Of a stretch of DNA of 9,660 nt, positions 5,296 through 5,332 are shown one piece after another. The notes under the pieces were generated by a model that had not been told where the DNA came from, ran no database searches, and saw only the letters and a list, made by a program, of their open reading frames with translations. Source of the DNA: a virus. Taxonomy: Duplodnaviria; Heunggongvirae; Uroviricota; Caudoviricetes. The stretch lies in the IMG/VR virus record IMGVR_UViG_2529292829_000015. One strand, written 5' to 3'. The translations under genes and the position numbers were made by a program. How positions within the stretch are numbered: the first letter of the stretch is position 1; every line of letters begins with the position of its first letter.

Positions 5296-5332
5296 ATATG
5301 TGCGCATGCATAAATAACGTATGCGCACATAT
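5296..5332. terminator. Perfect 12-bp inverted repeat (ATATGTGCGCAT / ATGCGCACATAT) with 13-nt spacer, between convergent gtrC and tailspike genes; candidate bidirectional terminator or protein-binding palindrome
   Basis: Arms at 5296-5307 and 5321-5332 are exact reverse complements. Located in the 56-nt gap between the two convergent stop codons. A U-rich tract follows only on the minus-strand side. Confidence 0.35.

What the first reader, a model, noticed from the sequence alone, without database searches (positions are those of the whole stretch)
5296..5332. Perfect 12-bp inverted repeat between the convergent gtrC and tailspike genes
ATATGTGCGCAT and its exact reverse complement are separated by 13 nt, with nested palindromic GCATGC in the left arm and spacer. 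This is longer and more perfect than a typical intrinsic terminator and only has a U-rich flank on one side. It could be a bidirectional terminator, a protein-binding dyad, or a module junction between the AT-rich gtrC and the tailspike.
Basis: seen in the sequence. Interest (0 to 1): 0.28.

Follow-up and report, generated by a model that had tools for sequence, protein, structure and literature searches.

The report
Ordinary terminator hairpin after tailspike gene
The inverted repeat is real. It is most likely the ordinary transcription-stop hairpin that P22-like prophages carry just after their tailspike gene, so it is a routine feature and not a new element.

Summary
ATATGTGCGCAT (5296-5307) and its exact reverse complement (5321-5332) lie 13 nt apart. 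They sit in the 56-nt gap between the stop codons of a gtrC-like gene (3829-5280, +) and a P22-type tailspike gene (5337-7355, -). A perfect repeat this long arose in 2 of 300 shuffles of the window.

As RNA it folds into a strong hairpin on both strands (-21 to -23 kcal/mol; no shuffle matched it). Only the tailspike strand has a U-rich tail (UUAUUUCG). The best reading is an intrinsic terminator closing the tailspike/late operon.

The same position holds annotated terminators in P22, Sf6 and epsilon34; P22's is itself a perfect 12-bp repeat. In my survey, 24 of 34 other tailspike genes have a comparable hairpin within 21 nt of the stop.

On the gtrC strand there is a hairpin but no U-tract, so canonical bidirectional termination is not supported. 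A pause or RNA-stabilising role remains possible.

The half-site occurs nowhere else in a 45-kb complete carrier prophage, so I see no sign of a protein-binding dyad. It is not a module junction either: the mosaic joint lies about 470 bp inside the tailspike gene, and low G+C spans both sides.

Every carrier has an identical hairpin, so covariation could not be tested. Interest is low.

The parts
5296..5307 (.). Left arm of the perfect 12-bp inverted repeat (ATATGTGCGCAT): a GC-rich 8-bp core GTGCGCAT plus a 4-bp A/T extension
5308..5320 (.). 13-nt spacer. On the + strand, 2 more pairs form and leave a 9-nt loop. On the - strand, a 1x1 mismatch plus a 3-bp mini-stem leave a 5-nt apical loop.
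5321..5332 (.). Right arm (ATGCGCACATAT)
5293..5335 (-). Full predicted RNA hairpin on the tailspike strand: 15 outer pairs (including 2 G-U) plus 3 inner pairs, -21.4 kcal/mol for the hairpin alone
5285..5295 (-). U-rich tail on the tailspike strand (UUAUUUCGAAA); 5 U in the first 8 nt after the 12-bp stem
5337..7355 (-). Tailspike gene: 672 aa from the ATG at 7355 (the mechanical ORF extends to 7403). It has a P22 head-binding domain, a beta-helix and a C-terminal Peptidase_S74 chaperone domain. Its stop codon lies 4 nt from the repeat.
3829..5280 (+). gtrC-like polytopic membrane protein gene (483 aa), last gene of gtrA-gtrB-gtrC. Its stop codon lies 15 nt from the repeat.

Best explanation
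The repeat most likely encodes the Rho-independent (intrinsic) terminator that closes the tailspike gene, which is the last gene of the P22-type late operon, on the - strand.

Proposed mechanism: once RNA polymerase has passed the tailspike stop codon (5337-5339), the nascent RNA folds into a GC-cored hairpin (GUGCGCAU/AUGCGCAC, extended by AUAU/AUAU). This hairpin is followed directly by UUAUUUCG. Hairpin formation over a weak rU:dA hybrid releases the transcript about 45-55 nt past the stop codon, before the polymerase runs antisense into gtrC. The same hairpin then protects the mRNA 3' end from exonucleases.

On the + strand the gtrABC transcript also acquires a stable 3' hairpin, but with no U-tract. 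There it would at most pause the polymerase or stabilise the RNA.

What is shown: the repeat, its position, the predicted fold, the strand asymmetry, and the presence of equivalent hairpins at the same spot in relatives. What is inferred: that transcripts actually end here.
For: 1. Structure. Predicted RNA hairpins of -21.1 (+) and -22.8 (-) kcal/mol; 0 of 200 shuffles fold as well on either strand.

2. U-tract on the - strand only. UUAUUUCG follows the stem there, against CCAAUCAU on +. A rough hairpin-plus-T-tract index gives -4.1 (-) against -37.7 (+). The annotated epsilon34 terminator scores -6.2 on the same index.

3. Position. The hairpin starts 1-4 nt after the tailspike stop codon, in a 56-nt convergent gap.

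4. Annotated equivalents at the same junction.
- P22 RefSeq has a 'terminator' at 18214-18245 between gene 9 and gtrC, which is the perfect 12-bp repeat AAAAATGGGTGT/ACACCCATTTTT.
- Sf6 has one between the tailspike and oac.
- epsilon34 has a 'Rho-independent terminator' right after the tailspike.

5. Survey. Of 34 other tailspike genes (head-binding-domain relatives from 29 genome loci, 4 reference phages, and 1 beta-helix homologue in a different phage), 24 have a hairpin of -13 kcal/mol or stronger starting within 21 nt of the stop. These hairpins are unrelated in sequence. The window's -21.4 is within the range of -13.4 to -23.6.

6. gtrC homologues. Four lineages at 41-49% protein identity each have a different single hairpin filling the 29-38 nt gap to a convergent tailspike gene.

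7. Operon context. In E. coli O68:H12 strain 97.3 the identical cassette ends the structural/late gene block of a complete P22-like prophage, with the Q-type antiterminator gene upstream on the same strand.

8. Published background. Most E. coli inverted repeats of at least 8 bp near gene ends are parts of intrinsic terminators (PMC6060812).
Against: - No transcript-end data exist for this locus, so termination is inferred.
- The stem is AU-rich at its base and the U-tract is interrupted (5 U in 8). On the rough index it scores below the P22 and Sf6 terminators.
- The simple consensus scan did not report it, because it requires a loop of 3-8 nt and the spacer here is 13 nt.
- From established knowledge of lambda Q and P22 gp23: late-operon polymerase is modified to read through terminators, so efficiency at this site during lytic growth is uncertain.
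- The window itself comes from an ~8.5-kb prophage remnant at argW with no late promoter or antiterminator gene. In that genome the tailspike-strand function may be a relic.
- All known carriers have an identical hairpin, so there is no covariation support for this particular stem.
Confidence: 0.8

Rival explanations
1. True bidirectional terminator. The single hairpin stops both the late/tailspike transcript and the lysogenically expressed gtrABC transcript. It would act either as a weak intrinsic terminator on + or as the hairpin pause site of a collision-type bidirectional terminator between convergent genes.
For: - The hairpin is equally stable on both strands.
- The AUAU stem extension gives each strand an A/U-rich start immediately after the GC core.
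- P22's hairpin at the same junction is symmetric, with A5 and T5 flanks, and is annotated as the gtrC terminator.
- gtrC homologues always carry one hairpin shared with the convergent tailspike gene.
- E. coli has many bidirectional terminators between convergent genes that do not resemble intrinsic terminators. There the hairpin fixes the site of polymerase collision (bioRxiv 10.1101/2022.10.23.513370).
Against: - The + strand tail CCAAUCAUCCCC has 2 U in the first 8 nt, and the rough index is -37.7.
- Collision termination needs both operons transcribed at once. By general knowledge of P22-like phages, gtr is a lysogenic-conversion operon and the tailspike is a late gene.
- In the window's remnant, no late promoter is present.
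Confidence: 0.3
2. Protein-binding dyad or cruciform on DNA, such as an operator or a recombinase or nuclease site.
For: The arms are perfect 12-bp repeats, each containing the palindrome TGCGCA, with GCATGC nested alongside.
Against: - No other copy of ATGTGCGCAT (up to 1 mismatch) in the window or in the 45-kb complete prophage. Only the two arms were found, against 5.3 matches expected by chance.
- Not near any promoter. The only nearby promoter-like match is weak, and such matches are fewer in the window than in shuffles.
- The 13-nt spacer disfavours cruciform extrusion: loops of 3-6 nt are typical (PMC6060812).
- Relatives have unrelated hairpin sequences at the same place. That fits a structural RNA signal and not a specific DNA-binding site.
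Confidence: 0.03
3. Module junction: a recombination boundary where gtrC cassettes and tailspike cassettes are joined.
For: In a different gtrC lineage (L005 against L006), homology runs through the hairpin and ends right after it, at the tailspike stop codon. P22-like genomes are known mosaics.
Against: - For this cassette, in the two carriers whose identity profile was computed (L002, L064), the joint is at about 5810, inside the tailspike gene between the beta-helix and the C-terminal chaperone region. Sequence from gtrC through the hairpin to 5810 is 98-100% identical, while 5810-6890 is about 70%.
- L060, which has the same 676-aa tailspike type, is identical over 5261-5360.
- G+C is uniformly low across the hairpin.
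- No E. coli complete genome holds one side without the other.
Confidence: 0.05
4. Chance palindrome with no function.
For: The same 12-nt arms with other loops occur in four unrelated metagenome contigs (L061, L062, L065, L066). The arm sequence is therefore not unique to this element.
Against: - Only 2 of 300 window shuffles reach 12 bp anywhere in the 9660 nt.
- It lies exactly in a 56-nt convergent gap, where relatives also have hairpins.
Confidence: 0.01

Closest known systems
Phage P22 terminator between gene 9 (tailspike) and gtrC (NC_002371.2 18214-18245)
   Same: Same genomic niche: a single hairpin in a 56-nt gap between convergent tailspike and gtrC genes. It is also a perfect 12-bp inverted repeat whose outer pairs are A/T.
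   Different: No sequence similarity. P22 has a 4-nt loop and symmetric A5/T5 flanks, so it is a textbook bidirectional terminator. The window's hairpin has a 13-nt spacer, a GC core of 8 bp instead of 6, and a U-tract on the tailspike strand only.
Sf6 and epsilon34 terminators directly after the tailspike gene
   Same: A hairpin starts 3-7 nt after the tailspike stop codon, facing a convergent O-antigen-modification gene (oac or gtrC). The U/pyrimidine-rich tail is on the tailspike strand only.
   Different: Shorter stems (7-9 bp), tetraloops and unrelated sequences.
E. coli bidirectional terminators between convergent genes (SEnd-seq; Ju et al. 2019, as described in bioRxiv 10.1101/2022.10.23.513370)
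   Same: A hairpin-encoding element in a short gap between convergent transcription units.
   Different: Those were defined by mapped overlapping 3' ends from both strands and by dependence on convergent transcription. Neither is known here.
REP/BIME and other repeated extragenic palindromes of E. coli
   Same: An extragenic palindrome at gene 3' ends that can stabilise mRNA.
   Different: REP elements occur in hundreds of copies per genome (general knowledge). This sequence occurs once per genome, in 4 of 5426 complete E. coli genomes, always inside the same cassette.

Membership tests
Rho-independent (intrinsic) terminator, tailspike (-) strand | Stable GC-containing RNA stem-loop | tested here: met
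   -22.8 kcal/mol in a 75-nt context, z = -4.2, 0 of 200 shuffles as stable. The hairpin alone is -21.4 kcal/mol.
Rho-independent (intrinsic) terminator, tailspike (-) strand | U-rich tract immediately 3' of the stem | tested here: met
   UUAUUUCG follows the 12-bp stem, with 5 U in 8 nt. The T-tract score is 3.55, against 2.48 for the annotated epsilon34 terminator and 4.1-5.0 for Sf6 and P22. The tract is interrupted, so it is moderate and not strong.
Rho-independent (intrinsic) terminator, tailspike (-) strand | Located just downstream of the last stop codon of a transcription unit | tested here: met
   The stem begins 1-4 nt after the tailspike stop codon. The tailspike is the last gene of the late block in the complete prophage.
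Rho-independent (intrinsic) terminator, tailspike (-) strand | Compact geometry (stem about 5-14 bp, loop 3-8 nt) | tested here: inconclusive
   On the - strand the fold has a 5-nt apical loop, but only via a 1x1 mismatch and a 3-bp mini-stem. As a perfect repeat the spacer is 13 nt, which is why the consensus scan missed it. Relatives show similar long stems.
Rho-independent (intrinsic) terminator, tailspike (-) strand | Transcripts end at the U-tract in vivo or in vitro | not testable with these tools
   No transcriptome data for carriers; this needs Term-seq, 3' RACE or a reporter assay.
Canonical bidirectional intrinsic terminator | U-tract after the hairpin on both strands (A-tract/U-tract symmetry) | tested here: not met
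   The + strand tail is CCAAUCAU, with 2 U in 8 nt and an index of -37.7. P22's equivalent meets this feature.
Collision-type bidirectional terminator between convergent genes | Hairpin element between convergent genes, with overlapping 3' ends from both strands that depend on convergent transcription | not testable with these tools
   The convergent arrangement and the hairpin are present. The transcript ends and their dependence on convergent transcription are unknown.
Operator or protein-binding dyad | Recurring half-site, usually near a promoter and in several copies within the element | tested here: not met
   No extra copies in the window or in the 45-kb prophage L059. There is no significant promoter context.
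Repeated extragenic palindrome (REP/BIME-like) or MITE | Many dispersed copies per genome | tested here: not met
   One place per genome in 4 of 5426 E. coli genomes at E up to 1. None in the phage collection or IMG/VR. No Rfam family.
Structured RNA supported by covariation | Compensatory base changes among homologous copies | tested here: inconclusive
   All carriers (L002, L059, L060, L063, L064) are identical across the hairpin, so there is no variation to test. Compensatory changes were seen only in the non-homologous hairpins of other lineages, by eye.

The most novel reading that the evidence does not exclude
The hairpin could be a U-tract-independent, pause- or collision-type insulator. 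It would separate the lysogenically expressed gtrABC operon from the late operon in both directions. It would also travel as part of a co-inherited low-G+C cassette (gtrC + hairpin + tailspike C-terminal chaperone region) that is kept intact while only the receptor-binding beta-helix is exchanged.
Probability: 0.15. Interest if true: 0.3.

Novelty: new member of a known kind. Interest (0 to 1): 0.08.

Why it matters
It matters little beyond annotation.

- It marks the 3' end of the tailspike/late transcription unit, and probably the 3' end of stable gtrABC mRNA, in a rare E. coli P22-like cassette.
- The comparison shows that a hairpin directly after the tailspike stop codon is a general feature of P22-like prophages, even though its sequence is not conserved.
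- The more interesting biology nearby is the mosaic structure. The receptor-binding beta-helix is swapped, while gtrC, the hairpin and the tailspike C-terminal chaperone region stay together.

Tried and rejected
1. Looked for homologous copies with sequence variation, to test covariation.
- Megablast and blastn of the junction against complete E. coli genomes and phage records.
- Exact-arm pattern scans of IMG/VR (none) and of metagenomes.
- Contig look-ups for gtrC and tailspike relatives.
- Result: every true carrier has an identical 56-nt gap, so no covariation test was possible.

2. The four other metagenome contigs with the same arms (L061, L062, L065, L066) have different loops and flanks and no similarity to the window. 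I rejected them as unrelated.

3. Operator hypothesis: half-site searches found nothing beyond the two arms.

4. Known RNA families: no Rfam hit near the site at E up to 1.

5. Module-junction hypothesis: rejected for this cassette from the identity profiles and the G+C profile.

6. The consensus terminator scan missed the site because of its loop limit. I therefore wrote my own hairpin survey and a rough score. The score formula (d'Aubenton-Carafa type) was recalled from memory and used with modern energy parameters. Only the relative ranking is meaningful, not the zero threshold.

Full report
**Observation.** Window 5296-5307 (ATATGTGCGCAT) and 5321-5332 (ATGCGCACATAT) are exact reverse complements separated by 13 nt. 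GCATGC lies at 5304-5309. This was the longest perfect inverted repeat with a 3-20 nt spacer in the window. A repeat of at least 12 bp arose in only 2 of 300 dinucleotide-preserving shuffles of the whole 9660 nt.

**Context.** The window reads as follows:

| Feature | Coordinates |
|---|---|
| yfdC | 1-933 |
| tRNA-Arg(CCT) | 1009-1083 |
| integrase | 1209-2402 |
| gtrA | 2556-2918 |
| gtrB (GT2) | 2915-3832 |
| gtrC-position gene, 483 aa | 3829-5280 |
| the repeat | 5296-5332 |
| tailspike (- strand) | 5337-7355 |
| Mnt/Arc-like repressor gene | within ORF 7444-7737 |
| truncated gp16-type DNA-transfer gene (- strand) | 7755-9047 |
| excisionase/TorI-like ORF | 9460-9660 |

- The gtrC-position protein has no Pfam hit. 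It has about 9-11 hydrophobic segments and a soluble C-terminal region. All 10 homologue clusters found among 5.8 billion proteins come from Enterobacteria; those looked up (P0003, P0005, P0008, P0010) follow gtrA-gtrB.
- The tailspike has a P22 head-binding domain, a beta-helix and a C-terminal Peptidase_S74 chaperone domain.
- The gtrC stop codon (5278-5280) and the tailspike stop codon (5337-5339) leave a 56-nt gap. The repeat occupies 37 nt of it.

**Where the window comes from.**
- The window is identical to E. coli strain 027_SK3. There the element is only an ~8.5-kb remnant at argW, between yfdC and dsdC.
- The same gtrABC-hairpin-tailspike cassette sits at the end of the late/structural gene block of a complete P22-like prophage at ybhB/ybhC in E. 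coli O68:H12 strain 97.3.

**Structure.**
- + strand: as RNA the region forms 14 pairs with a 9-nt loop, -21.1 kcal/mol (z = -5.4).
- - strand: it forms 15 outer pairs (two of them G-U) plus a 3-bp inner stem with a 5-nt loop, -22.8 kcal/mol (z = -4.2).
- No shuffle out of 200 folded as well on either strand.
- The repeat is best read as an 8-bp GC-rich core (GUGCGCAU/AUGCGCAC) extended by AUAU/AUAU.
- On the - strand the stem is followed by UUAUUUCGAAAUU. On the + strand it is followed by CCAAUCAUCCCC.
- A rough hairpin-plus-T-tract index gives -4.1 for the - strand and -37.7 for the + strand. On the same index, the annotated terminators of epsilon34, P22 and Sf6 score -6.2, +22.9 and +33.5 on their tailspike strands. 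In all three the opposite strand scores lower. The formula was recalled from memory, so only the ranking is meaningful.
- The consensus terminator scan did not list the site because it only allows loops of 3-8 nt.

**Comparison with relatives.** The equivalent junction carries an annotated terminator in three reference phages:
- P22: 18214-18245, between gene 9 and gtrC.
- Sf6: between the tailspike and oac.
- epsilon34: directly after the tailspike.

P22's terminator is itself a perfect 12-bp inverted repeat, AAAAATGGGTGT-aaac-ACACCCATTTTT. Perfection and a 12-bp arm length are therefore not unusual in this niche.

I surveyed 34 other tailspike genes: 29 intact head-binding-domain relatives from a scan of species-representative genomes, the reference phages P22, Sf6, epsilon34 and Kapi1, and one beta-helix homologue from a different phage type (L003).
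- 24 of them have a hairpin of -13 kcal/mol or stronger starting within 21 nt of the stop codon. The hairpin sequences are unrelated.
- Predicted hairpins with 13-20 paired bases (interrupted in some) occur in L010, L022, L026, L035, L036 and L037.
- The energy range is -13.4 to -23.6 kcal/mol, and the window's -21.4 lies within it.

Other comparisons point the same way:
- gtrC homologues at 41-49% identity (four lineages) each have one different hairpin filling a 29-38 nt gap to a convergent tailspike gene.
- Tailspike beta-helix homologues in other podophages end with a canonical GGCCCC/GGGGCC + U-tract terminator. One copy carries a compensatory GGCUCC/GGAGCC change.

So the structure is conserved at this position across non-homologous sequences. 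That is what a terminator predicts, and a sequence-specific DNA site does not.

**Conservation of this particular hairpin.**
- It occurs in 4 of 5426 complete E. coli genomes, once each.
- It is absent from 50,697 phage records and from IMG/VR.
- It occurs in a few assemblies and metagenome contigs (L002, L060, L063, L064).
- All carriers are identical over the 56-nt gap, so no covariation test is possible.
- Four further metagenome contigs share the arms but have different loops and flanks and no similarity to the window. I treat them as coincidences.

**Module-junction idea.**
- L002, L060 and L064 carry a different tailspike type (676 aa). In L002 and L064, where the identity profile was computed, sequence is about 70% identical over 5810-6890. 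It is 98-100% identical from inside gtrC, through the hairpin, to about 5810. L060 is identical over 5261-5360.
- Low G+C (32-38%) likewise runs from about 3600 to about 5800, with no change at the repeat.
- The exchange point is therefore inside the tailspike gene, between the beta-helix and the C-terminal chaperone region, and not at the hairpin.
- In another gtrC lineage, homology does end just after the hairpin (L005 against L006). The idea is reasonable in general, but it is not what this cassette shows.

**Protein-binding idea.**
- The 10-nt core half-site, with up to 1 mismatch, has no other copy in the 45-kb complete prophage; about 5 matches were expected by chance. The full 12-nt arm, with up to 2 mismatches, has one extra match in the window at 6100-6111, within chance expectation.
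- The site is not at a promoter, and promoter-like matches are fewer in the window than in shuffles.
- There is no Rfam match.

**Mechanism and caveats.** The most likely function is intrinsic termination of the tailspike/late transcript, plus 3'-end stabilisation (confidence about 0.8).
- On the gtrC strand the hairpin lacks a U-tract, so canonical bidirectional termination is not met. A pausing, collision-type or RNA-stabilising role remains possible. Such hairpin-dependent bidirectional terminators between convergent genes have been described in E. coli (bioRxiv 10.1101/2022.10.23.513370).
- Termination is inferred and has not been observed.
- The U-tract is interrupted and the stem base is AU-rich.
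- From general knowledge of lambda Q and P22 gp23, Q-type antitermination may let late-operon polymerase ignore the terminator.
- In the window's own genome the late promoter is gone.
- Published E. coli surveys agree that most inverted repeats of at least 8 bp at gene ends belong to intrinsic terminators (PMC6060812).

**Verdict.** This is a real, non-random feature, and an ordinary one. It is a new sequence instance of the well-known terminator hairpin at the tailspike/O-antigen-modification junction of P22-like prophages. Interest is low.

Noticed in passing
window 5810-6890 (tailspike beta-helix), compared with L002, L060 and L064: The receptor-binding beta-helix has been exchanged: about 70% nucleotide identity to L002 and L064. 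The head-binding region (from about 6890) and the C-terminal ~158 codons plus hairpin plus gtrC stay 98-100% identical. L060 carries the same 676-aa tailspike type with an identical gtrC protein and junction. Two tailspike variants therefore share one gtrC.
   Followed up: partly
window 5442-5606 (- strand; residues 600-654 of the 688-aa ORF): The P22-type tailspike ends in a Peptidase_S74 intramolecular-chaperone domain (Pfam E 6e-14). Close beta-helix homologues (57-66% identity) sit on other N-terminal anchors (Tail_spike_N, T7 tail-fibre) in other phage types.
   Followed up: partly
window 1009-9660; L058 40199-48850: The window's source element is only an ~8.5-kb prophage remnant at argW: intS, gtrABC, an intact tailspike, an mnt-like gene, a truncated gp16-type gene and a torI-like gene, next to dsdC. 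It resembles a CPS-53/KplE1-type cryptic prophage. The identical cassette also occurs in a complete P22-like prophage at ybhB/ybhC in another strain (L059).
   Followed up: partly
window 3829-5280: The gtrC-position protein (483 aa, about 9-11 hydrophobic segments) has no Pfam family. Only 10 other clusters were found among 5.8 billion proteins, the nearest full-length one at 49% identity. Its C-terminal 200 residues match PHROG 13688, of unknown function.
   Followed up: partly
window 7622-7631 and 7645-7654: A second perfect inverted repeat (GCTCTGCATC / GATGCAGAGC, 13-nt spacer) lies inside the C-terminal part of the Mnt/Arc-like ORF. Its function was not examined.
   Followed up: no
window 8921-8942 and 8953-8972 (+ strand): Two tandem terminator-like hairpins with T-tracts lie inside or antisense to the truncated gp16-type ORF, just upstream of the 114-aa ORF at 8992-9336.
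   Followed up: no
L006 3652-3677 against L048 (about 3130-3158); L003, L055 and L057 just after the tailspike stop: In other lineages the junction hairpins keep pairing through changes on both sides: A-T to C-G next to the shared GCCCAC/GTGGGC core, and GGCCCC/GGGGCC to GGCTCC/GGAGCC. This is small-scale covariation supporting a structural role for these junction hairpins. It was seen by eye, not counted formally.
   Followed up: partly
window 7353-7403: The mechanical ORF (688 aa, from 7403) overshoots the likely tailspike start. The P22-like N-terminus [10 protein letters not shown] begins at the ATG at 7355, giving 672 aa, as in the database protein P0012 and the RefSeq annotation.
   Followed up: yes
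L061, L062, L066 (8-nt loop) and L065 (5-nt loop): Unrelated metagenome contigs carry the same 12-nt arms ATATGTGCGCAT/ATGCGCACATAT with different loops and flanks and no similarity to the window. I took these as coincidental.
   Followed up: partly
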